Below, one piece after another: positions 38,598 through 49,730 of a stretch of 64,000 nt of DNA. The stretch comes from an uncultured Acidobacteriaceae bacterium (GTDB lineage: Bacteria; Acidobacteriota; Terriglobia; Terriglobales; Acidobacteriaceae): NCBI GenBank assembly GCA_963720245.1, contig CAVREU010000004.1:404469-468468 (forward strand), in the 5' to 3' direction. Made by a program: the position numbers and the translations under genes. Position 1 is the first letter of the stretch. The number at the start of each line of letters is the position of its first letter. A model generated the notes under the pieces. That model worked only from the letters and a program-made list of their open reading frames with translations, did not search any database and was not told the DNA's origin.

Positions 38598-39290
38598 TTA
38601 GGCGCGGACGGAGATGCCGGTGAACGACATCACGGCAAGCCCGCGCACCGGCTGGCCAAAGACTCGCGCCGGCTCAAAGACGCTAAAAAGCAACAGGTTC
38701 TCCAGCGCAGAACGCGTATTGGCATCGTTCGGTCCAGAGACGATGTGGTAGTCGTAAACCCGCCCTCCGCCGTTGATATAGGCCTCGACGATTACGGGAT
38801 TATCGCGACCGCCGATCGGAACCGCCTCAGGTTCGATCTGGGAGTAGAGAAAATGAGGATTGGAAGCCATCCCCAGCGGAACATCCCGCGCCGCCAACGG
38901 CTCTGGACGGGCAAACATCCCGATCAGCAGCGCCACCGTGCCCAGCAGCAGGACGGTGCTCGCAAAACCGGCCGAGGCCTGCAATAAGAATGGGCCGAAT
39001 GTATTCTGCCAACGCACTTTCAAAGCCGGCAAAAGATTCTCAGGCGTCCGGGCGCGCTCCTTGGAGATAGCCACGCGGAGCCGCAGGGCAAGATCGTCGG
39101 GCGCCTTCAGCGGGGCCAGCGACGCGAGCGCGGCCTGGGTCGAACGCAGACCCTCAAACTCCGTCGTGCAAGCCTCGCAATCGCGCAAATGCGCCGCGAT
39201 TCGCTGCATGGCCACACCGGTCACCGCGCCATCGAGATAGCTGGAGAACTGCGCCTTGATCCTCGTGCAGACAACCTCGCCGCCGTTCAT
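38598..39290 (-). CDS. Zinc-binding anti-sigma factor (zf-HC2) with TM helix and TonB-C-like periplasmic domain
   Basis: YLDG..HLRDCEAC ZAS motif; single TM; overlaps the sigma-factor stop codon (ATGA). Confidence 0.85.
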   Translation of the reverse strand: MNGGEVVCTRIKAQFSSYLDGAVTGVAMQRIAAHLRDCEACTTEFEGLRSTQAALASLAPLKAPDDLALRLRVAISKERARTPENLLPALKVRWQNTFGPFLLQASAGFASTVLLLGTVALLIGMFARPEPLAARDVPLGMASNPHFLYSQIEPEAVPIGGRDNPVIVEAYINGGGRVYDYHIVSGPNDANTRSALENLLLFSVFEPARVFGQPVRGLAVMSFTGISVRA

Positions 39291-40021
39291 CGCGCCTCCT
39301 CTACCGCAAGACCGTCGAAACCGAGCACTCCGCTCTCGGCCGCTCGACCTGCCGATGCCGCGACCCGCGCCGGGGGCTTCGATGCCGCCTCGGCGAAGGG
39401 CGTCAGCAGCGTCTTCAACTGCACCCGGCCCCGCAGCAGCCTGGATTTGACCGTTCCGAGGTTCACGTTCAGAATCTCGGCAATCTCCTCGTAGGTAAAT
39501 CCCTCAATGTCCCGCAGCACCACAACCGTGCGAAAGGGCTCTGAAACCAGCCGAAGCTGGGCTTCGACGTGTTGGCGAATCTGCTGTTGCGCAGCAGCGT
39601 CAAAGGGCGAAAGCTGACCGTCAACCAGAGTCTCTTTGTAGCTCAGCGGCTGGCCATCGCTCGATTGCTCCGACTCCGCCTCAATGGTCACCTCGCGGCG
39701 CTTATGGCGAGACCACCACCGGCGGCCGTTCAGCGCCTCATGCAGGGCGATGCGGTAGATCCAGGTGCGCAGGCTGGCGTCGCCATGAAATCCGCCTATG
39801 CCGCGAAAGATCTTGATGAATATCTCTTGGGTAAGATCAGCGGCGTCGGCGGGATCGGGGATCGTGCGCGCGACCAGGCTGTAGAGAGGCTGGTGATAGG
39901 TGGCGATGAGCCATGCGAAAGCCTCCTCAGAGCCGGCCTTCAGCTCCGAGACAATGGCGGCTTCCTCCGCTCTGACGACTGCAATTCCTGCCAGGTTTCC
40001 CAACGCGATTCCCGCTTGCAT
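39287..40021 (-). CDS. ECF RNA polymerase sigma factor (RpoE/SigW-like)
   Basis: DAADLTQEIF, LRTWIYRIA (region 2); VVVLRDIEGFTYEEIAEILNVNLGTVKSRLLRGR (region 4). Confidence 0.95.
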   Translation of the reverse strand: MQAGIALGNLAGIAVVRAEEAAIVSELKAGSEEAFAWLIATYHQPLYSLVARTIPDPADAADLTQEIFIKIFRGIGGFHGDASLRTWIYRIALHEALNGRRWWSRHKRREVTIEAESEQSSDGQPLSYKETLVDGQLSPFDAAAQQQIRQHVEAQLRLVSEPFRTVVVLRDIEGFTYEEIAEILNVNLGTVKSRLLRGRVQLKTLLTPFAEAASKPPARVAASAGRAAESGVLGFDGLAVEEAR

Positions 40022-40290
40022 GAAGAAACTCCCCTTACAGTAACAGGACAGCAAGGCGCCTGTCGCCGGCGCGGATCATCGATGGTTTCCAACTCACCAA
40101 AACTACGCCGCCGGCGGCCGAGTGTCTCGCTCACTCTATTTCCTTAGACACCGGAGACAAGCGATTTAGTTCCCCGAAAATTGGACACTCATTCATGCCT
40201 CTCTACCCCGGCGCCACAAATCCGGTTGGCCAGCCGCCGAAGTTTGACGAACCGCGCCGACTCAACGAGAATAAGAAGGTTGGTCATTGT

Positions 40291-40522: not shown

Positions 40523-43500
40523 TCAGACCAGTCTCGCAGCGGAAATCAACTCCGGCGGGATCGGCCGGCCGGTGTAATAGCCCTGAACGTCGTCGCATCC
40601 CGCGCCCCTGAGAAAGTTCATCTGGTCCCGCGACTCGACGCCCTCCGCAACCACCGATACTTTGAGCTGGTGAGAGAGGGCGATGATTGCGTTGGTCACC
40701 GCCGCGCTGTTCTCGCTTGTCGAACAGTCCTGAATGAAACAGCGGTCGATCTTCAGCCGATTCACCGAGAATCGCAGCAGATACGACATGCTGGAATAGC
40801 CGGTGCCGAAATCGTCGATCGCGATGCGGACCCCGAGGTTGCGCAGTCCCTCAAAAAAGGACTGCGCCTTGGGAGCGTCATTCATGAGCAGGCTCTCGGT
40901 GATTTCGATCTCCAGGCAACTGGGGTCCAGGCGGTTCACCTGCAACGCGTCCTCGATGACCTGCAGCAGGTCCGGCTGATCGAGCTGGCGCGCTGAAACG
41001 TTCACCGCCATGACCAACTGCGGTCCAAACTGTTCATGAAGTTTCGTCAACTGCCGGCAGGCAGTGTGGATGACCCAGGCGCCGATCGGAAGAATGAGCC
41101 CGGTCTTTTCCGCCAGGGGGATGAAGCGTGCCGGAGACACCACCCCGAATCGTTTGCTCGTCCACCGCAAGAGTGCCTCGAAGCCCACCATCTCGCCATC
41201 GGCGAGGGAGAACTGGGGCTGATAGTGGAGCTGCAGTTCGTTTTCGTTGAGCGCATCGCGCAGGGCGGCCTCCATGCCCCGCTGCTCCACCGCCAGCGCG
41301 GCGATTTCCTGGCTGAATACCTGATAGGAATGCTGACCGGAGGCTTTCGCGTGGTACATCGCGGTGTCCGCGTTTCGCATCAGCATGTCCGCGTCGGCTC
41401 CTCCGTCGGGGAAGATGCAGACACCGATGCTTGCGCTAACGTTGATGGGCTCGCGTTCGCCTAACACTAACGGCGGGCTCAAGGCGGACAAGAGTTTTTC
41501 CGCCACCCGCAAGGCGTCGGAAGAAGACTTGAGGTCGGTTGCCAATACGACGAATTCGTCACCGCCCATGCGCGCCACGGTGTCGACCGCCCGGACTGCC
41601 AAACTCAGCCGCCGTGCGGTCTCGGCCAGCACCATGTCCCCAACGTGGTGACCGAGCGAATCGTTGATGCGCTTGAAATTGTTCAAGTCAATCATCAACA
41701 GCGCACACGGAGCGGAGTAACGTTTCGATCGCGAAATCATCATGTTGAGCCGGTCAGCCAGCAGTTGGCGGGTAGGCAATCCGGTCAGCTTGTCGTGATG
41801 CGCAAGATGGGAGATGTATTCTTCGCGCCGCTTGCGTTCGGAGATATCGTACGCAGTAATCATGAAGGCGGTGGGCTGGCCGGATTTGTCCTTAAGCGGT
41901 GTGACCGTCACCTCGACAATGGTCTTCGACCCTCCGTTACGGACAAAGATCCATTCCCGTCCCCGGCCGGAAAGGTTTTCCCCGGAGAAGATAGCTTCCT
42001 CAAGGGAAACGGTGCACCCGCGTTCCTCTGAGAGCTGTCGGGCAAGCTCTTTGACCTCCGGCGCGTCGTAGATGGTTAACGGCGTCTTTCTGCCGATGAG
42101 TTCCTCGCGGGTATACCAGAGCAATCTCTCGGCAGCGGGATTTACGGCACTGATTACGTAATCCTTGCCGGCGACGATAATGGCAGCCGGTGAGTTCTCG
42201 ATCATCGATTCGGTAAAAGCCCTGCTCCGTTCCAGGGCAATCTGGTTGCTCATCGCCGCTCTCGTCGATTTGAGGGCCAGCTGGCTTTTGACCCGCGCCC
42301 TCACCGCCGCGGGCGAGATTGGCTTGGTGATGTAATCGACCGCACCCGCTTCCAGCGCCCTGGCTTCGTCCTCCACTCCCAGAGACCCGGTGACGACCAG
42401 GACGGGCAGGTCCCAGTTCTCGTGGTCCGCTTTCAGCTGCCGGCAAACCTCATATCCGTCGATGCCGGGCATCATGACATCGAGCAGCACCACATCGGGC
42501 ATCGAGGTGGCGGCGATCTCCAAAGCCGACTGGCCGTCGGTTGCCGAGAGCACTTCGTAGTTGCCGCCCAGCGCTTCAACCAGCAGGTCGATGTTCGAGG
42601 GCTCGTCGTCGACAACCAGGATGCGCGAGCGTCGCTTGACCGACCCGGGTCCGGCGGAGCTCGGCGCCGGTAGGGCCGGTCGACGCGCGCCCGGTGGTGT
42701 TGTGCCCATGGTGTTTACAGCAGCGATGGCCGGACCAAGGGCCCCTTCCATCGCTTCGAGCAAGGCGTCGAGATTTTCCCGTTGCCCGAGCCGCAGCGCG
42801 CTTTCCAGAGACGATGCGGCCTCAGCCAGATCCGTGGCCTCCAGTGTCGCGGCAACACCCTTCAGCGAGTGCGCCAGCCGCTCGGCGCCTTCGACCTGTC
42901 CGGCGGCAAGGTTCTTTCGCAGCCTGGAGACCGCATCGGAATATTTGTCCCGGAAGCCGAACATCATCTTGAGAAGCAGGCCGGTCTTGCCGTTACAACG
43001 TTCCAAAGCGGCCTGGATGTCGAATGGTGGCAATTCTTGAGGAATGCCATCGTGAGGCTGCACAGGCCGAACCTCCAATCCTGGTTCGATGTAATTCTGA
43101 TTCTGAATTGCTTCTTTCGGTTGGTTCGCCGGCATCCATCGCAGCAGGGCATCGGTCAACCGGTTGGGGTGGATTGGCTTGGTGACATGGTCATTCATTC
43201 CCGCTTCGAGGCTTCTCTCGCGGTCCCCGCTCATCGCATGGGCGGTCATGGCGAGGATAGGCAGATCGCGATAATGGTCATCGGCGCGAATCGCCCGGGT
43301 CGCCGTCAGCCCGTCCATCACCGGCATCTGGATGTCCATGAGGACCAGGTCGAAGGGCTCCGCGGTGACCCGGTCGACGCCCTCTCGGCCGTTTACGGCG
43401 ATGGTCACGGCTATGCCAAGATCTCCAAGAAGTTCGGCTGCCAGATCGCGGTTGATCTCGTTGTCCTCGACCAGCAGGACGCGGCGTCCCTTTAACGTCG

Positions 43501-45562
43501 TCGCGGCCTCAGCCGCGGGGGCAGGATCTTCTGCCGCGCCTGACGACTTCACTCCGAAGATGTTCGCGATCGTATCGATGAGGACCGATGCATTGACCGG
43601 CTTGGTCAGGAATCCGTCCGGCACAAACTCCTGCGCCCTGCCCAGGAATTCTTCCCTCTCAAAGGCCGTGACCATCAGGATCGCCGGCGTGTGGGAGAGA
43701 TTTGGATCGCCCTTGATACGCCGACCGGTCTCGATCCCGTCCAGGCCTGGCATTCGCCAGTCCATCAGCACCAGTTCGATCGGCTCTCCGGCAACCGAAG
43801 CAGCCGACAGGCTATTCAACGCCTGTTCTCCGGAGGAAACCGCGTTCACCACAAAGCCGTTCGCAACCAGCATGGAGGTCAGGACGTCTCTTGCGCTTTC
43901 ATCGTCCTCGACGACCATGAGCGACTTTCTCCACAGTTCGCTCAGCCGTGCCCGGGCCTGCACCTGGGGTGCATCGGCGGCGATGCCGAAGTTCGCGCTG
44001 AAGCGGAAGGTGCTTCCTTTACCCAGTTCGCTCTCGACGGAGATGCCGCCGCCCATCAGCTCGCAGAGCTGCTTGCAGATCGCCAGGCCGAGTCCCGTTC
44101 CCGCGTAGCGGCGAGTGATCGACGTGTCCGCCTGGGTAAAGGCCGCAAAGAGATGCGAGACCTGGTCCTCAGTCATGCCTACGCCGGAATCTCGAACGGA
44201 GAAGCAGAGCCGCACCGCGCCCTCCGTCGATGTCTCCACGGCTACGCGGACAAGCACATCTCCTCGATCGGTGAACTTGATGGCGTTGGCCACCAGATTG
44301 ATCAGAATTTGCCCCAGTCTCAGCGGGTCGCCGATCAGGTAGGGAGGAACGTTGGGCACGATCGAAAATTCGAGCCTTATGCCCTTTTGCTGCGCCTTTT
44401 CGCCGACCATGTCGAGCACATGGTCCAACGCCGGCCCCAGCGAGAAGACAACGTGTTCCAGCTCCAGCTTGCCCGCTTCCACCTTGGAAAAATCGAGGAT
44501 GTCGTTGATGATCGTGAGCAACGACTTGCCGGCATTGCTGATCTTGCTCAGATAACCCGCTTGCTTGGGATTTGGATCGGCGCGTAGCGCCAGATGAGTC
44601 ATCCCGAGGATCGCATTCATTGGCGTCCGTATCTCATGGCTCATATTGGCCAGAAACTCCGACTTGACCCGGCTCGCCTCTTCGGCGACGCTCCTCGCCC
44701 GCCTTGCCGCGTCCTCCTGCTTTCGCTCGGTAATATCCCGGACCAGGCCGACAAATAATCCTTGGCTCTGATGAGAGACCTCGGAAATGATGAGCTCCAT
44801 CGGGAACGTCCGGGCCGCCTTGGTCAGACCCTCCAGTTCCCGGGCCGCCCCGGTGACCTTCCTCGGGCCCGTCGACTGATAATGCGCCAGGTGGTCGTCA
44901 TGTTTGCTGCGGTCGCCTGCGACCATCAATACTTTGATGTTTTGACCGATCATCTCCGAAGCTTCGTACTCGAACATCCGCACCCCGGCGGGGTTGACAG
45001 AAAATATGGTCCCTGAAGCGTCGAAGGTGATGACCCCATCGACAACGTTATGCAGGATCGCGCGCAGTCGCGCCTCAGAGTCCCGGAACGCTTCCTGGCT
45101 GGTGATTCTTTTCACCAGGAGCTCTTGAATCTGCGGCAAACACAAAGGCAGCGCCACCGCAGTGATCACCGAGGCGCAGGCGGTAATCAGCTGCATACCA
45201 CCCCGTAGCCAGTAGAGCGGATACCAAAGCACGACGACGTCCAGCAACCGGGTGAATCCGCATGTGAGAATGAACGCGCCGAAGAGTACCAGAATGCCTT
45301 TGAACTGAAAATACCTCCGGATCCCCACCACCATGACAGCCAGCCTCACCCCTATGGCGAGGGAGCAAACGAAGATCACCGAATCCGAGACGACGTGCAG
45401 CCACAGTAGCCACGGGTTCCACTCAGAGTTCACGCCGCGCGGCTGATAGCCGGTGGACAACAGGTTGATTGACAGCCAAGGATACAGGCCAAGAGCGACC
45501 GGCAGCACCAGAATTGCGGCGGTAACAGGCAAGCGCTTGCCCATGATTGCGGTGACTTGCAT
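40523..45562 (-). CDS. Hybrid sensor kinase / c-di-GMP enzyme: ethylene-receptor-like TM domain-PAS-HisKA-HATPase-REC-REC-Hpt-REC-PAS-GGDEF-EAL (1679 aa)
   Basis: MSHEIRTP H-box; three REC aspartates (LMDWRMP, LMDIQMP, LLDVMMP); AHSLKG Hpt; RAVD I-site plus GGDEF; EAL, EITES, DDFGTGYSS, EGVE. Confidence 0.93.
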   Translation of the reverse strand: MQVTAIMGKRLPVTAAILVLPVALGLYPWLSINLLSTGYQPRGVNSEWNPWLLWLHVVSDSVIFVCSLAIGVRLAVMVVGIRRYFQFKGILVLFGAFILTCGFTRLLDVVVLWYPLYWLRGGMQLITACASVITAVALPLCLPQIQELLVKRITSQEAFRDSEARLRAILHNVVDGVITFDASGTIFSVNPAGVRMFEYEASEMIGQNIKVLMVAGDRSKHDDHLAHYQSTGPRKVTGAARELEGLTKAARTFPMELIISEVSHQSQGLFVGLVRDITERKQEDAARRARSVAEEASRVKSEFLANMSHEIRTPMNAILGMTHLALRADPNPKQAGYLSKISNAGKSLLTIINDILDFSKVEAGKLELEHVVFSLGPALDHVLDMVGEKAQQKGIRLEFSIVPNVPPYLIGDPLRLGQILINLVANAIKFTDRGDVLVRVAVETSTEGAVRLCFSVRDSGVGMTEDQVSHLFAAFTQADTSITRRYAGTGLGLAICKQLCELMGGGISVESELGKGSTFRFSANFGIAADAPQVQARARLSELWRKSLMVVEDDESARDVLTSMLVANGFVVNAVSSGEQALNSLSAASVAGEPIELVLMDWRMPGLDGIETGRRIKGDPNLSHTPAILMVTAFEREEFLGRAQEFVPDGFLTKPVNASVLIDTIANIFGVKSSGAAEDPAPAAEAATTLKGRRVLLVEDNEINRDLAAELLGDLGIAVTIAVNGREGVDRVTAEPFDLVLMDIQMPVMDGLTATRAIRADDHYRDLPILAMTAHAMSGDRERSLEAGMNDHVTKPIHPNRLTDALLRWMPANQPKEAIQNQNYIEPGLEVRPVQPHDGIPQELPPFDIQAALERCNGKTGLLLKMMFGFRDKYSDAVSRLRKNLAAGQVEGAERLAHSLKGVAATLEATDLAEAASSLESALRLGQRENLDALLEAMEGALGPAIAAVNTMGTTPPGARRPALPAPSSAGPGSVKRRSRILVVDDEPSNIDLLVEALGGNYEVLSATDGQSALEIAATSMPDVVLLDVMMPGIDGYEVCRQLKADHENWDLPVLVVTGSLGVEDEARALEAGAVDYITKPISPAAVRARVKSQLALKSTRAAMSNQIALERSRAFTESMIENSPAAIIVAGKDYVISAVNPAAERLLWYTREELIGRKTPLTIYDAPEVKELARQLSEERGCTVSLEEAIFSGENLSGRGREWIFVRNGGSKTIVEVTVTPLKDKSGQPTAFMITAYDISERKRREEYISHLAHHDKLTGLPTRQLLADRLNMMISRSKRYSAPCALLMIDLNNFKRINDSLGHHVGDMVLAETARRLSLAVRAVDTVARMGGDEFVVLATDLKSSSDALRVAEKLLSALSPPLVLGEREPINVSASIGVCIFPDGGADADMLMRNADTAMYHAKASGQHSYQVFSQEIAALAVEQRGMEAALRDALNENELQLHYQPQFSLADGEMVGFEALLRWTSKRFGVVSPARFIPLAEKTGLILPIGAWVIHTACRQLTKLHEQFGPQLVMAVNVSARQLDQPDLLQVIEDALQVNRLDPSCLEIEITESLLMNDAPKAQSFFEGLRNLGVRIAIDDFGTGYSSMSYLLRFSVNRLKIDRCFIQDCSTSENSAAVTNAIIALSHQLKVSVVAEGVESRDQMNFLRGAGCDDVQGYYTGRPIPPELISAARLV

Positions 45563-45810: not shown

Positions 45811-48800
45811 TTGGAGCTCTTTGTGATTGTTCGCGCCCTCCGTTTCCAGATTCACGCCCTCACATTCCACTTTGCCTTCCTCGCCTGTGTGGCGATCGCG
45901 GCGCTTGCGCCCTCTTCATGCCCGGCGCAATCTGCCGATGAGGTCACTTCGCTGACCAAAGCGTTGCCCTCGGCCTCGCGAACCACCATCGACCGCCTCG
46001 CCGAACTCAACAACCTGCCCGTCGACGGCTGGCGCTTTCACGCCGGCGACATCGCCCACGGCGAATCCGTAAGCCTCGACGACAGCGCCTGGCCGATTCT
46101 TCCCGTCAAAGGCAACGCGACGAAGGACGCAGTCTGGTTTCGTCGCACCATCGAGGTCCCCAAGACGCTCCACGGCTACGACCTGACCGGGACCCGCATC
46201 TGGTTCCAGTTCCACGCCAACGCCAACGGCCCGATGCCCGAGATTGTCTATTTCAACGGCCGCCGCGTCGCTCTCGGCGACGATCTCGAGCCCATCGTCC
46301 TCTTCGACAACGCACAGCCGGGCGACAAGATCCTCGTCGCCGTCAAGATCCTCCAAACCGTCGACGACAAGCGCTTCAACGGAGTCACCACCAAAATCGA
46401 CTTCGCCGAAAACCGCCCCAGCCCCGACGACCTCCGCAAGGAGTTCCTCTCCGACGCCGTGCTCGTACCCTCGCTCGCACCGGGATCGTCGTCAGACATC
46501 GATACCCTCGCCAAGGCCATCGCCGCCGTCGATCTGAACGCACTCTCCAGCAGCGACCAGGCCGCCTTCGACGCCTCGCTCAAAGCCTCACAGTCTCAGC
46601 TCGAAGCGCTAAAGCCGCTGCTCAAGCAAGGCACTTTTCACCTCACCGGCAACTCCCACATCGATGCTGCGTGGCTCTGGCCGTGGACGGAGACCGTAGA
46701 CGTCGTCAAGCGCACCTTCGGCACCGCCGCGCAGCTAATGTACGAGTATCCGAACTACACCTACACCCAGTCCGCCGCGCAATACAACCAGTGGATGGCC
46801 GACAAATATCCAGCCCTCAACGCCCAGATCAAGGAGCGCATCGCCCAGGGCCGCTGGGAAGTCGTCGGCGGCATGTGGATCGAGCCCGACCTCAATATGC
46901 CTGACGGCGAATCGCTCGTCCGCCAACTGCTCATCGGCGAGGCCACCTTCAAAAACCTCTACGGCGTCACCACCCGCATCGGCTGGAATCCCGACTCCTT
47001 CGGCTACAACTGGCAGCTCCCGCAGATCTACAAGCGCTCCGGACTCGACTACTTCGTCACCCAGAAGATGACCTGGAACGACACCAACCAGCTCCCCTTC
47101 AAGCTCTTTTGGTGGGAATCGCCCGACGGCAGCAAGGTGCTCGCCTACTTCCCGCATGACTATGCAAACAACAATCTCGACCCGGTGCGCCTCTCCGCTG
47201 ACCTTGCCGTCGCGCGCGAACGCTCGCCCGGCATGACCGACATGATGGACCTCTACGGCATCGGCGACCACGGCGGCGGTCCGACCCGCTCGGTCCTCGA
47301 CGAGGGCGATCACTGGAGCGACCCAAACAAAGTCGTGCCTAAATACCAGTTCGGCATCGCGCAGACCTACTTCACCACGGTCGAAAAACAGATCGACCCC
47401 GACTCGCCCACCTGGAACTACGTCGTCATGGCCAAGGGCGAGAACAAGCTGCCCACTCCACCCGCCGGCGAAATGGCCATCCCCACCTGGAAGGACGAGC
47501 TCTATTTCGAATACCACCGCGGCGTCTTCACCACCCAGGCCGATCACAAGCGCAACATGCGCGAGAGCGAAGAGTGGCTGCTCAACACCGAGAAATATTC
47601 CTCGCTCGCCTGGCTGCAGGGCAGCGACTATCCCGCCGCCAAACTCACCGACGCGTGGAAACAGGTACTCTTCAACCAGTTCCACGACCTCGCCGCCGGC
47701 TCCGGCATCGGCATCATCTATAAGGAAGCGCAGCGCGATTACGACCGCGTCCGCTGGACCAGCAACGAAGCCTCCCACAACGCGCTCGAAACCATCCAAT
47801 CCAGAATCGACACCCGCACTAAAGACGGTGTTCCCGTCCTCGTCTTCAACCCGCTCGCCTGGGAACGCTCCGGCGACGTCATGGTCACCGCCGAACTTCC
47901 CGCAAAGCGCCGACTCCGTCTCGGTCCTCGATCCCAAGGGCAACGTGCTGCCGTCGAAGCTGCTCTCCCGCGAGCCTCACTCCAACATCTATCACCTGCT
48001 CGTCAGCGCCGGCCCCGTGCCATCGATGGGCTACAAGCTCATCCACGTCGTTCCCGGCAACAAGACCTTCACCAGCGATCTCAAGGTCAGCGGAATGACC
48101 ATCGAGAACGCCAACCTCCGCGTGACCGTCGATCCCACCACCGGATGCATCACTTCCCTCTTCAACAAGAAGGCCAACTTCGAAACCCTCGCGCCCAACT
48201 CCTGCGGCAACGAGCTGCAGGCCTTCAAAGACACGCCCAAGGAATACGACGCGTGGAACATCGATCCCGGCACCCTCGACCAGCCGCCAACGCTGATCCA
48301 TCAGGTCGATTCTGTCAAGGTCGTCGAAAGCGGCCCCATGCGCGCCGGAATCCAAGTCGCCCGCACCTGGCAGAAGCTCCAAATTCGTCCAGGAAATCTC
48401 CCTCGACGCCAACGCCGATCGAAGTCCTCGTCACCAACGACATCGACTGGCACGAAACCCACGTCCTGCTCAAAGCCGCATTCCCACTCGCCGCGACCAG
48501 CGACAACGCCACCTACGAAATCCCCTACGGCACCATCAGCCGCCCAACCACCCGCAACAACAGTTGGGAGAAGGCCAAGTTCGAAGTCCCCGCCATGCGC
48601 TGGGCCGACCTCGGCGACGCCAAGCAGGGCATGAGTCTCATCAACGAATCGAAATACGGCTACGACGCAGCCGGCAACGTCCTCCGCCTCTCGCTGCTGC
48701 GCTCGCCCGTCTGGCCCGACCCCGAAGCCGATCGCGAACACCACCACTTCGTCTTCGCCCTCTATCCCCACGCCGGCGACTGGAAGCAGGCAATGAGCAT

Positions 48801-49162
48801 GCGCCACGGCTATGAGCTCAACTACCAGCTCACCGCAATGCAGGTCGATCAGCACACCGGAGACTGGCCGTCTGAACACTCCTTCGTCGGCATCGACGGC
48901 GACAACGTCGTGCTCACCGCAATCAAGAAAGCCGAAAACGCCGACGGATTGCTCTTCCGCTTCTTCGAGTGGGAAGGCAAAGCCGGCAACGTAACCCTAC
49001 ACGTCCCCGAGGGCGCAACTTCAGCAACAATCACCAACCTGATGGAGACGCCCGGAAGGCTCACCGCTCCCCGTCACCAGCAACCAGGTCACAGTGCCAG
49101 TCACGCCGTTCCAAATCCAGACAGTGAGGATCGACTATCCATCAACCGTGGCAAAGCAGTAG
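45811..49162 (+). CDS. Secreted GH38 alpha-mannosidase, interrupted by four apparent +1 insertions (about 47904, 48374, 48420, 49054)
   Basis: SHIDAAWLW, GGMWIEPD, WNPDSFG, YGIGDHGGGP, ELYFEYHRG, NQFHD, LRLSLLRS; removing single bases gives a continuous protein ending ..IQTVRIDYPSTVAKQ* at 49162. Confidence 0.9.
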
Positions 49163-49730
49163 CACTACTCCACTTCGTTAGCTTTAGGGGGCGACTTTGC
49201 TCGTCGCCCCGTTCGATCGGGAGTTATCTAGCAAGGTGATTTCAATATGCTGACCACAGCTTTGGCGAAATTGGGATCGAAGACAGTCTTGGCTTATAGG
49301 CAGGCGCTCCTCTTTCGCCATAAGCATTCCTCCGATTCTCAACTTTCGCGCTGGGCTTCTGCCTCGGCCAATTTTTCTGGGAATTGTCGTGACATGGATT
49401 TTGATTCTCCATCAGAAACGCGACTGGAGTTACGGAGCGGCCAGAGAAGATGGGGTCACCTATCAGTCCTGGTTCACGCTCAAAACTATCTCATGGAACG
49501 AAGTAGCCAGCGTCAGCGCCAATGCCATAGCGATTCGCCTGGAGCGAAGGGGCAGCCGGCAGAGCTGAACCGCTCTCTGCAATTTAATCGAATTGGTGTT
49601 CCCCTTGACGCCTGCCTCCCTGGAGCGACGCAGAGTCAACTTCGATTTGCTCCAGCGTTGGTAGTGCGAACCAGCTAACGCTCAGCAATAGTTCGATAGT
49701 TGGATTGAACGGCTCAGGTGAGAGACAGGC

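What the first reader, a model, noticed from the sequence alone, without database searches (positions are those of the whole stretch)
45100..45420. Ethylene-receptor-like membrane domain with the copper-ligand His replaced by Arg
Seen: WLHVVSDSVIFVCSLAIG..FGAFILTCGFTRLLDVVVLWYPLYWL aligns by eye with the ETR1/cyanobacterial ethylene-binding domain (SDFFIALAYFSIP..FGAFIVLCGATHL). Asp25 and Cys65 equivalents are kept; Tyr32 is Ser, Pro36 is Gly and His69 is Arg. The Arg codon is CGG (45248-45250), two changes from His, so a single base error does not explain it. Established: Cys65 and His69 are needed for Cu(I)/ethylene binding in ETR1. Inference: a degenerate or re-purposed sensor for another ligand or metal.
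Basis: partly seen in the sequence, partly recalled or inferred. Interest (0 to 1): 0.7.

Follow-up and report, generated by a model that had tools for sequence, protein, structure and literature searches.

The report
Copper-blind ethylene-receptor domain on acidobacterial kinase
A soil acidobacterium's giant signalling protein starts with the membrane domain that plants and bacteria use to sense ethylene through copper, but it has specifically lost the copper-binding histidine and four other key polar residues, so it is most likely an ethylene-blind anchor while a neighbouring FixL-type haem domain does the sensing.

Summary
Residues 52-147 of a 1679-aa ORF (window 40523-45562, minus strand) match Pfam ETR1_N (E 3e-24, 85.5 bits). 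The copper-ligand His69 position is Arg105 (CGG, 45248-45250). A second assembly of the same species (98.9% nt identity) also encodes Arg, as CGT, so it is not a sequencing error.

Among 30 columns that are at least 90% conserved in 157 representatives, this protein departs at five, all polar:
- His and Cys of a periplasmic PHGxCYLW cap, now Arg and Asn
- Tyr32, now Ser
- His69, now Arg
- Lys91, now Gln

The hydrophobic scaffold diverges no faster than in canonical relatives, all of which keep CGxTH.

H69R is rare but recurrent, with five independent origins found. Copper-site loss goes with loss of the cap motif.

A FixL-type haem PAS with its proximal His follows directly, then HisKA-HATPase-REC-REC-Hpt-REC-PAS-GGDEF-EAL.

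Best reading: a copper- and ethylene-blind membrane module, comparable to the ethylene-insensitive etr1-1 class of plant alleles, with input taken over by the haem PAS. It is a degenerate variant of a large known family, of modest interest. The cap/copper-site co-loss is the most useful by-product.

The parts
40523..45562 (-). One 1679-aa gene: TM0, degenerate ETR1_N, FixL-type PAS, HisKA, HATPase, REC, REC, Hpt, REC, PAS, GGDEF, EAL
   Evidence: Intact ORF. Pfam domains. Against a conspecific assembly, 15 synonymous and 5 non-synonymous codon differences in 1625 codons, so the gene is under purifying selection.
45461..45532 (-). Extra N-terminal hydrophobic helix TM0 (aa 11-34), after K9-R10. 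It puts the following loop in the periplasm.
   Evidence: AF2 model helices 11-26 and 28-34. 60% identical to the G063 homologue. The topology is inferred.
45425..45442 (-). Remnant of the periplasmic PHGxCYLW cap motif: P41-R42-G-V-N45-S46. The His is now Arg and the Cys is now Asn.
   Evidence: His is present in 145 of 152 and Cys in 144 of 152 aligned representatives.
45122..45409 (-). ETR1_N (ethylene-binding-type) three-helix membrane domain, aa 52-147
   Evidence: PF25487 at E 3e-24, 85.5 bits. AF2 helices 50-80, 88-113 and 117-169, pLDDT about 77-87.
45383..45385 (-). D60 = ETR1 Asp25, retained
45362..45364 (-). S67 = ETR1 Tyr32 position, Tyr -> Ser
   Evidence: Tyr in 151 of 157 representatives. 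Codon TCC.
45260..45262 (-). C101 = ETR1 Cys65, the Cu(I) ligand, retained
45248..45250 (-). R105 = ETR1 His69 position, the Cu(I) ligand His -> Arg. CGG here, CGT in the conspecific MAG L061.
   Evidence: His in 155 of 157 representatives. Codons.
45191..45193 (-). Q124 = ETR1 Lys91 position, Lys -> Gln
   Evidence: Lys or Arg in 153 of 157 representatives. For the role of Lys91 see PMC10266040.
44723..45085 (-). FixL-type haem-binding PAS domain (aa 160-280). The proximal His is H221 (CAT, 44900-44902).
   Evidence: phmmer against PDB: B. japonicum FixL 8js5 at E 3.2e-24 and R. meliloti FixL 1d06 at E 8e-24. The alignment is gapless, and DRSKH221DD aligns with DRSRH200DS.
43997..44665 (-). 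HisKA and HATPase_c kinase core (aa 300-522)
42263..43921 (-). REC, REC, Hpt, REC internal phosphorelay (aa 548-1100)
40562..42205 (-). PAS, GGDEF, EAL output for c-di-GMP turnover (aa 1120-1667)

Best explanation
The domain is a true homologue of the copper-dependent ethylene-binding domain (EBD). It has lost the ability to hold Cu(I) and therefore to bind ethylene.

Arg105 replaces the His69 ligand. A protonated guanidinium cannot ligate Cu(I). It probably sits where the metal would be and pairs with the retained Asp60. The other polar residues that serve the site are also gone: the periplasmic His/Cys cap, Tyr32 and Lys91. The hydrophobic three-helix scaffold is kept.

The module therefore works as a membrane anchor and dimerising stalk fixed in the ligand-free state, like the plant etr1-1 class of ethylene-insensitive alleles. 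Regulation of the kinase, the phosphorelay and the GGDEF-EAL output comes from the cytoplasmic sensors, above all the FixL-type haem PAS that follows TM3 directly.

Shown: family membership, the substitutions, their rarity, their reality in two assemblies, scaffold conservation, and FixL homology with the proximal His.

Inferred: loss of copper and ethylene binding, the Arg-Asp pairing, the locked state, and O2 or other gas sensing by the PAS.
For: (1) ETR1_N match at E 3e-24.

(2) His69 is His in 155 of 157 nearest cluster representatives and in all eight word-index homologues. Only this protein has Arg.

(3) Its five departures from the 30 columns that are at least 90% conserved are exactly cap-His, cap-Cys, Tyr32, His69 and Lys91. 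No scaffold column (FG.FI, W.P.YW, TA..S..TA) is changed. Its mean identity to outgroup EBDs is 56%, against 52-60% for canonical relatives.

(4) The Arg is real and maintained. A conspecific MAG encodes the same EBD protein with a synonymous CGT/CGG difference at this codon. The gene overall shows 15 synonymous and 5 non-synonymous differences.

(5) Published mutagenesis:
- Cys65 and His69 coordinate Cu(I).
- The C65S/H69A double mutant keeps only residual copper binding.
- etr1-1 (C65Y) binds neither copper nor ethylene and is dominantly insensitive.
- K91M and K91A keep about 1% of ethylene binding.
- Seven residues, including Tyr32, Pro36 and His69, are required (PMC10266040; PMC11819568).

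(6) Copper-site changes go with cap changes. In the 183-row table, 7 of the 8 copper-site-altered EBDs whose cap residues could be scored have an altered cap, against 9 of 169 intact ones (Fisher 9e-8). The two H69R EBDs found later in metagenomes also have an altered cap His. This fits loss of one functional unit.

(7) An alternative input exists. PAS1 is FixL-type with the proximal His.

(8) Loss recurs in the closest clade. On the C-terminal tree, three of its five members lost His69 (Arg, Asp, Arg) while the sister of one of them is canonical.
Against: - No binding data exist.
- Asp25, Ile35, Ile62 and Cys65 are kept, and ETR1 C65S/H69A retains residual copper binding, so weak metal binding is not excluded.
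- Pro36 is not conserved in bacterial relatives (Ser in 94 of 157), so its change carries no weight.
- Normal scaffold conservation, and Cys65 and Asp25 each kept in 4 of 5 H69R lineages, could mean the pocket still does something.
- The phylogenetically paired test of cap and copper-site co-loss is underpowered (4 pairs, none contrary, p 0.125).
Confidence: 0.7

Rival explanations
1. Re-purposed sensor. The remodelled pocket (Asp60, Cys101, Arg105, Gln124, Ser67) binds a different ligand or metal, for example an anion or a small polar or lipophilic molecule. The membrane domain still gates the kinase.
For: The scaffold diverges no faster than canonical EBDs, and all changes are confined to pocket or polar residues. 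Cys65 and Asp25 are each kept in 4 of 5 independent H69R lineages. The Arg codon shows a synonymous polymorphism, so Arg is maintained in both assemblies.
Against: No clade shares the new residue set. The five R69 lineages are independent and differ at the cap, Tyr32 and Lys91. The nearest full-length homologue with R69 (G063) has also lost Asp25 and Cys65 and shows general decay, with 12 departures. No candidate ligand can be named.
Confidence: 0.17
2. Still a working ethylene receptor with lower affinity. Cu(I) is held by Cys101 and Asp60, plus a backbone or Thr104 contact. This would be comparable to the natural Asp25Asn low-affinity variants.
For: ETR1 C65S/H69A keeps residual copper binding that depends on Asp25, and D25N still signals in planta (PMC10266040). 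Cys65, Asp25, Ile35 and Ile62 are retained.
Against: The Azospirillum receptor paper counts seven residues as required for ethylene binding in ETR1 (PMC11819568); by this report's alignment they include His69 and Tyr32, both changed here. Lys91 is also lost, and K91M/A retain about 1% of binding. A charged Arg in the site would repel Cu(I). The cap His and Cys are lost as well.
Confidence: 0.08
3. Artefact or dead gene: a sequencing or assembly error at the His codon, or a pseudogene drifting freely.
For: The genome is a MAG. Neighbouring genes show indel-type frame problems. The conspecific copy has a frameshift in its EAL domain.
Against: Two independent assemblies encode Arg with different codons. 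The ORF is intact over 1679 codons. The synonymous to non-synonymous ratio is 15:5. All catalytic domains score strongly in Pfam.
Confidence: 0.02

Closest known systems
Ethylene-binding domain of Arabidopsis ETR1 and bacterial receptors SynEtr1 (Synechocystis) and AzoEtr1 (Azospirillum brasilense); Pfam PF25487 ETR1_N
   Same: Three-helix membrane domain at the N-terminus of a histidine kinase, with a significant profile match. Asp25, Ile35, Ile62, Cys65 and the FGxFI / WxPxYW / TAxxSxxTA scaffold are conserved.
   Different: His69 -> Arg, Tyr32 -> Ser, Lys91 -> Gln, and the cap His/Cys are lost. An extra N-terminal TM helix is present. A FixL-type PAS follows where plants have GAF. The output is a full phosphorelay plus GGDEF-EAL.
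Plant etr1-1 (C65Y) class of laboratory alleles that abolish copper or ethylene binding
   Same: Loss of a Cu(I) ligand in helix II. These alleles cannot bind ethylene and stay in the signalling-on conformation (PMC10266040).
   Different: This is a natural, fixed variant in a bacterium. It is accompanied by loss of four further polar residues. Its behaviour is inferred, not measured.
FixL of Bradyrhizobium japonicum and Rhizobium meliloti (haem-PAS O2 sensor kinases; PDB 8js5, 1d06, 1dp6)
   Same: PAS1 aligns without gaps at E about 1e-24, with the proximal His conserved. From my own knowledge, R. meliloti FixL also has an N-terminal multi-TM region with no known sensory role, followed by the haem PAS and the kinase.
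   Different: The membrane part here is a former EBD. BjFixL Arg206 is His here. The downstream architecture is much longer. Haem binding is untested.
Closest sequence relatives: canonical ETR1_N multi-PAS proteins of Acidobacteriota (P0010, P0011, P0002, P0014) and the same-genus homologue G063 (L039:5834-12085)
   Same: 51-60% identity in the EBD, the same TM0 helix, and a collinear HK-REC-REC-Hpt-REC-PAS-GGDEF-EAL body with 60-83% identity per domain.
   Different: P0010, P0011, P0002 and P0014 keep PHGxC, Tyr32, CGFTH and Lys91. G063 independently has Ser25, Ala65, Arg69 (CGC) and Glu91, and a generally decayed EBD. The FixL-type PAS sits near the C-terminal output in G063 and P0011, but directly after the EBD here. 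The loci are not syntenic.

Membership tests
ETR1_N / ethylene-binding-domain fold family (PF25487) | Significant profile match over the whole domain | tested here: met
   E 3e-24, 85.5 bits against a cut-off of 27, profile positions 2-96 of 97. 91.6 bits in the genome search.
ETR1_N / ethylene-binding-domain fold family (PF25487) | Three transmembrane helices at the N-terminus of a signalling protein, with TM3 continuing into the cytoplasmic linker | tested here: met
   AF2 helices 50-80, 88-113 and 117-169. An extra TM0 precedes them.
Functional copper-dependent ethylene receptor (ETR1, SynEtr1, AzoEtr1) | Cu(I) ligands Cys65 and His69 in helix II | tested here: not met
   Cys is present (C101). 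His is Arg (R105), confirmed in two assemblies.
Functional copper-dependent ethylene receptor (ETR1, SynEtr1, AzoEtr1) | The other five residues required for ethylene binding in ETR1: Asp25, Tyr32, Ile35, Pro36, Ile62 | tested here: not met
   Asp, Ile and Ile are kept. Tyr32 -> Ser. Pro36 -> Gly, but Pro36 is Ser in 94 of 157 bacterial relatives, so only Tyr32 counts. Criterion from PMC11819568.
Functional copper-dependent ethylene receptor (ETR1, SynEtr1, AzoEtr1) | Basic residue at Lys91 bridging to Asp25 | tested here: not met
   Gln124. Lys or Arg in 153 of 157 representatives. K91M/A retain about 1% of binding.
Functional copper-dependent ethylene receptor (ETR1, SynEtr1, AzoEtr1) | Saturable ethylene binding and Cu(I) binding | not testable with these tools
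   Needs 14C-ethylene and BCA-Cu(I) assays.
Bacterial EBD subgroup with periplasmic PHGxCYLW cap | His and Cys of the cap motif before TM1 | tested here: not met
   PRGVNSEW here. His in 145 of 152 and Cys in 144 of 152 representatives.
FixL-type haem PAS | Sequence homology to solved FixL haem domains, with the proximal His conserved | tested here: met
   8js5 at E 3.2e-24 and 1d06 at E 8e-24. H221 aligns with BjFixL His200.
FixL-type haem PAS | Haem binding and O2-dependent switching | not testable with these tools
   Needs spectroscopy of the expressed domain.
Hybrid histidine kinase / c-di-GMP enzyme | HisKA, HATPase, REC, Hpt, GGDEF and EAL domains above Pfam thresholds | tested here: met
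   Catalytic motifs were not inspected individually.

The most novel reading that the evidence does not exclude
H69R is not decay but a recurrent adaptive switch. The Arg guanidinium stands in for Cu(I) beside Asp25 and Cys65. That would convert an ethylene receptor into a metal-free, permanently 'ligand-free-state' transmembrane stalk and hand control to cytoplasmic sensors.

The linked loss of the periplasmic PHGxC cap would then identify that cap as the Cu(I) entry or co-ligand site of bacterial ethylene receptors. No such role has been described for it.
Probability: 0.15. Interest if true: 0.55.

Novelty: new variant of a known kind. Interest (0 to 1): 0.3.

Why it matters
Bacterial ETR1-type domains are usually annotated as putative ethylene receptors on domain presence alone. 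This case shows a well-scoring ETR1_N hit (85 bits) that almost certainly cannot bind copper or ethylene, so residue-level checks are needed before ethylene sensing is inferred for soil Acidobacteriota.

It also gives a natural multi-site mutant with an intact scaffold for testing what Tyr32, His69, Lys91 and the uncharacterised periplasmic PHGxC cap each contribute.

The co-loss of the cap and the copper site across independent lineages is a testable lead on how bacterial receptors acquire or hold their copper.

Tried and rejected
1. Sequencing error at the Arg codon. Rejected: a second assembly of the species has Arg as CGT.

2. Pseudogene. Rejected: the ORF is intact and the synonymous to non-synonymous count is 15:5.

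3. Arg shared by descent with the same-genus homologue G063. Rejected:
- The C-terminal tree places canonical P0011 as sister of G063 (99 SH-aLRT).
- The two EBDs are only 38% identical, and each is closer to canonical EBDs than to the other.
- The EBD tree needs 5 changes for the 5 R69 rows.

4. Charge-swap idea (Arg69 replaces Lys91 as the partner of an acidic residue). It fits the window (D/R/Q) and G063 (S/R/E). But L076, L099 and L116 keep Lys91 alongside Arg69, so it is not general.

5. General relaxed evolution of the window's EBD. Not seen: 56% identity to outgroups, the same as canonical relatives. It is seen for G063 (46%, 12 departures).

6. Solved-structure comparison. There is no PDB sequence match for the EBD and no significant Foldseek match for the AF2 model (best E 1.7).

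7. Phylogenetically paired test of cap versus copper-site loss. Underpowered: 4 pairs, p 0.125.

8. Literature search for described natural His69 variants or a described PHGxC cap. None was found in the papers read. This is not proof of absence.
Full report
**What is there.** The finding lies on the minus strand in the first 150 codons of a single intact 1679-aa ORF, window 40523-45562.

Pfam gives this domain order:
- ETR1_N (PF25487), aa 52-147, E 3e-24, 85.5 bits against a cut-off of 27
- PAS, aa 165-277
- HisKA and HATPase_c
- REC, REC, Hpt, REC
- PAS
- GGDEF and EAL

A hydrophobic helix (aa 11-34) precedes the ETR1_N domain. An AlphaFold2 model built on a 26-sequence alignment has mean pLDDT 76. 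It shows helices 11-34, 50-80, 88-113 and 117-169, the last running on into the linker to the PAS domain.

With K9-R10 inside the cell, the inferred topology is as follows. The loop at aa 35-49 is periplasmic, the three EBD helices have the orientation they have in ETR1, and the PAS is cytoplasmic.

| ETR1 position | Here | Status |
|---|---|---|
| Asp25 | D60 | kept |
| Tyr32 | S67 | changed |
| Ile35 | I70 | kept |
| Pro36 | G71 | changed |
| Ile62 | I98 | kept |
| Cys65 | C101 | kept |
| His69 | R105 (CGG, 45248-45250) | changed |

A DNA-pattern scan of one genome per species (185,579 species) searched for FGxFIxxCGxT followed by Arg (or Ser) in place of His. It returned a contig of 'uncultured Acidobacteriota bacterium MFD00964.bin.1.294' that is 98.86% identical to the window over 7.96 kb. 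It is a second assembly of the same species.
- Its EBD protein is identical, and codon 105 is CGT instead of CGG.
- The Arg is therefore real and is Arg in both assemblies. CAT -> CGT -> CGG is a trivial path.
- Across 1625 comparable codons the two copies differ at 15 synonymous and 5 non-synonymous sites. The gene is under purifying selection.

**How unusual it is.** All eight homologues from the word-index search carry CG[FLAT]TH.

An exhaustive phmmer search of 1.84 billion cluster representatives found 6512 proteins at E<=1e-3. I aligned 157 sequences: the best 150 of these, which include the query and one word-index homologue, plus the other seven word-index homologues:
- His69 is His in 155.
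- It is Arg only in the query.
- It is Asp in P0012.
- Cys65 is Cys in 156.

Thirty columns are at least 90% conserved. The query departs at five, which places it in the top 3% of the set for number of departures. All five are polar or functional residues:
- His and Cys of a PHGxCYLW motif just before TM1, here PRGVNSEW
- Tyr32
- His69
- Lys91, now Gln124

No scaffold column is changed. The EBD's mean identity to outgroup EBDs is 56%, the same as for canonical relatives (52-60%). This is targeted loss of the ligand apparatus, not general decay.

For scale, the strict canonical DNA motif (…CGxTH) occurs in 10 of 401 sampled genomes of the phylum. The Arg version occurs in only two species of the whole genome collection, both Acidobacteriota. 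One of them is the window's own species.

**Relatives and history.** The genome holds a second, short ETR1_N kinase (366 aa). It has CGSTH but carries Asp25->Asn and Lys91->Asn.

Within the genus, the closest full-length homologue is G063 (2083 aa; L039:5834-12085).
- It is collinear with the window protein but not syntenic.
- Its EBD reads Ser25, Ala65, Arg69 (CGC) and Glu91, with 12 departures from the conserved columns.
- Per-domain identity between the two proteins is 38% for the EBD and 57-83% for the kinase, REC, Hpt, GGDEF and EAL domains.

On a tree of the C-terminal PAS-GGDEF-EAL region, the closest clade is (P0014,(window,(P0012,(G063,P0011)))).
- P0014 and P0011 are fully canonical.
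- G063 and P0011 are sisters (99 SH-aLRT, 81% identity).
- His69 was therefore lost at least three times in this five-member clade, to Arg, Asp and Arg.

The genome and metagenome pattern scans added three more H69R domains. The signatures below give the residues at cap-His, cap-Cys, 25, 32, 35, 36, 65, 69 and 91:
- L076: HCDYIPCRK, canonical apart from Arg69
- L099: QTDFISCRK
- L116: YCDCIPCRK

An EBD tree built without the key columns needs five changes to explain the five Arg69 rows. H69R is thus rare but recurrent.

**Co-loss of the cap and the copper site.** I tabulated 183 distinct EBDs. Of the 8 with an altered Cys65 or His69 whose cap residues could be scored, 7 also have an altered cap His or Cys. 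Of the 169 with an intact copper site, 9 do (Fisher p 9e-8, uncorrected for phylogeny).
- The two H69R EBDs found afterwards in metagenomes also have an altered cap His.
- The tree-paired sign test has only four supported pairs. None is contrary, and p is 0.125, so the test is underpowered.
- I read this as suggestive evidence that the periplasmic cap serves the same function as the intramembrane copper site, for example Cu(I) capture or transfer. This is inference.
- Asp25->Asn goes with Lys91->Asn in three proteins. That fits the published Asp25-Lys91 bridge.

**What the substitutions should do.** Published work on ETR1 (PMC10266040; PMC11819568) shows the following:
- Cys65 and His69 of helix II coordinate Cu(I).
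- etr1-1 (C65Y) binds neither copper nor ethylene and is dominantly insensitive, because it cannot leave the 'on' state.
- C65S/H69A keeps only residual, Asp25-dependent copper binding.
- Asp25 lies 2.8 Å from His69 and 3.3 Å from Lys91 in the AlphaFold-Multimer model.
- K91M and K91A retain about 1% of ethylene binding.
- Seven residues are required for ethylene binding to ETR1; by this report's alignment they are Asp25, Tyr32, Ile35, Pro36, Ile62, Cys65 and His69.

The window protein lacks His69, Tyr32 and Lys91. Pro36 is also changed, but it is not conserved in bacterial relatives. A protonated Arg at position 69 is not a Cu(I) ligand and would sit next to Asp60.

The most likely state is a metal-free, ethylene-blind domain held in the ligand-free conformation.

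**Where the input probably comes from.** The PAS that follows TM3 directly (aa 160-280) is a FixL-type haem PAS.
- It aligns without gaps to B. japonicum FixL (8js5, E 3.2e-24) and R. meliloti FixL (1d06, E 8e-24).
- It also matches E. coli DosP and its isolated haem-PAS domain (E 1e-8 to 4e-10).
- H221 aligns with the proximal His200.

In G063 and P0011 the homologous PAS (57-60% identity) lies far downstream, near the GGDEF-EAL output. A different PAS follows the EBD in those proteins. So this lineage has also rearranged its sensors.

The overall picture is a membrane-anchored, probably gas-sensing, one-polypeptide phosphorelay that sets c-di-GMP levels. Its original membrane sensor has been switched off.

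**Rivals.**
- Re-purposing of the pocket cannot be excluded, because the scaffold, Asp25 and Cys65 are kept. But no lineage shares a new residue set and no ligand can be proposed.
- Residual low-affinity ethylene sensing is unlikely given three or four independent hits on required residues.
- Error or pseudogene is excluded for the Arg codon by the second assembly.

**Verdict.** The interpretation 'degenerate' is supported, and 're-purposed' is unsupported. This is a degenerate variant of a large, catalogued family, and comparable degenerate copies occur in other lineages. Interest is modest. The cap/copper-site co-loss and the recurrence of H69R are worth a systematic survey and a simple mutagenesis test.

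Noticed in passing
window 44723-45085 (-): The PAS directly after the degenerate EBD is a FixL-type haem PAS. It matches BjFixL 8js5 at E 3e-24, and the proximal His is H221 at 44900-44902. BjFixL Arg206 is His here. In the homologues G063 and P0011 the equivalent PAS sits near the C-terminal GGDEF-EAL instead.
   Followed up: partly
window 45425-45442 (-); homologues P0002-P0157: A PHGxCYLW motif in the periplasmic loop before TM1 lies outside the Pfam ETR1_N model. It is about as conserved as the copper ligands (His 145/152, Cys 144/152). It is lost together with Cys65/His69 in independent lineages (raw Fisher 9e-8; the paired test is underpowered). It may be a Cu(I) capture or co-ligand site.
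   Followed up: partly
G000:C6:778165-778449 = L002:1444-2544 (+): The genome has a second, short (366 aa) ETR1_N histidine kinase. It has an intact cap and CGSTH, but Asp25->Asn together with Lys91->Asn. The same pair occurs in two same-genus genomes (L032, L037). This fits the published Asp25-Lys91 bridge and the low-affinity Asn25 variants.
   Followed up: partly
window 45811-49239 (+), alternative frame 47828-48634: The divergently transcribed GH38 alpha-mannosidase reads as one 1142-aa ORF, but the first half of its GH38C domain (profile 1-87) is encoded in another frame. The conspecific assembly L061 differs by single-base indels at 46632, 47775 and 47897, and mismatches between the two assemblies are densest between 46.0 and 48.3 kb of the window. 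This is probably long-read assembly indels, or possibly a decaying gene.
   Followed up: partly
L061:2720-7813 (conspecific MAG), equivalent to window about 40676: The conspecific copy of the kinase gene has a one-base insertion that shifts the frame from codon 1629 inside the EAL domain. The window's copy is intact. This is either an assembly error or strain-level loss of the EAL end.
   Followed up: no
L039:5834-12085 (G063, same genus): A 2083-aa homologue has a much more decayed EBD (Ser25, Ala65, Arg69, Glu91; 12 of 30 conserved columns changed) but well conserved output domains. Its closest relative by C-terminus (P0011, 81% identity) has a fully canonical EBD.
   Followed up: yes
window 38598-40054 (-): An ECF sigma factor (39287-40054) and a zf-HC2 anti-sigma factor (38598-39290) lie just downstream of the kinase gene on the same strand. 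No stand-alone response regulator was found among the ten nearest large ORFs scanned.
   Followed up: no
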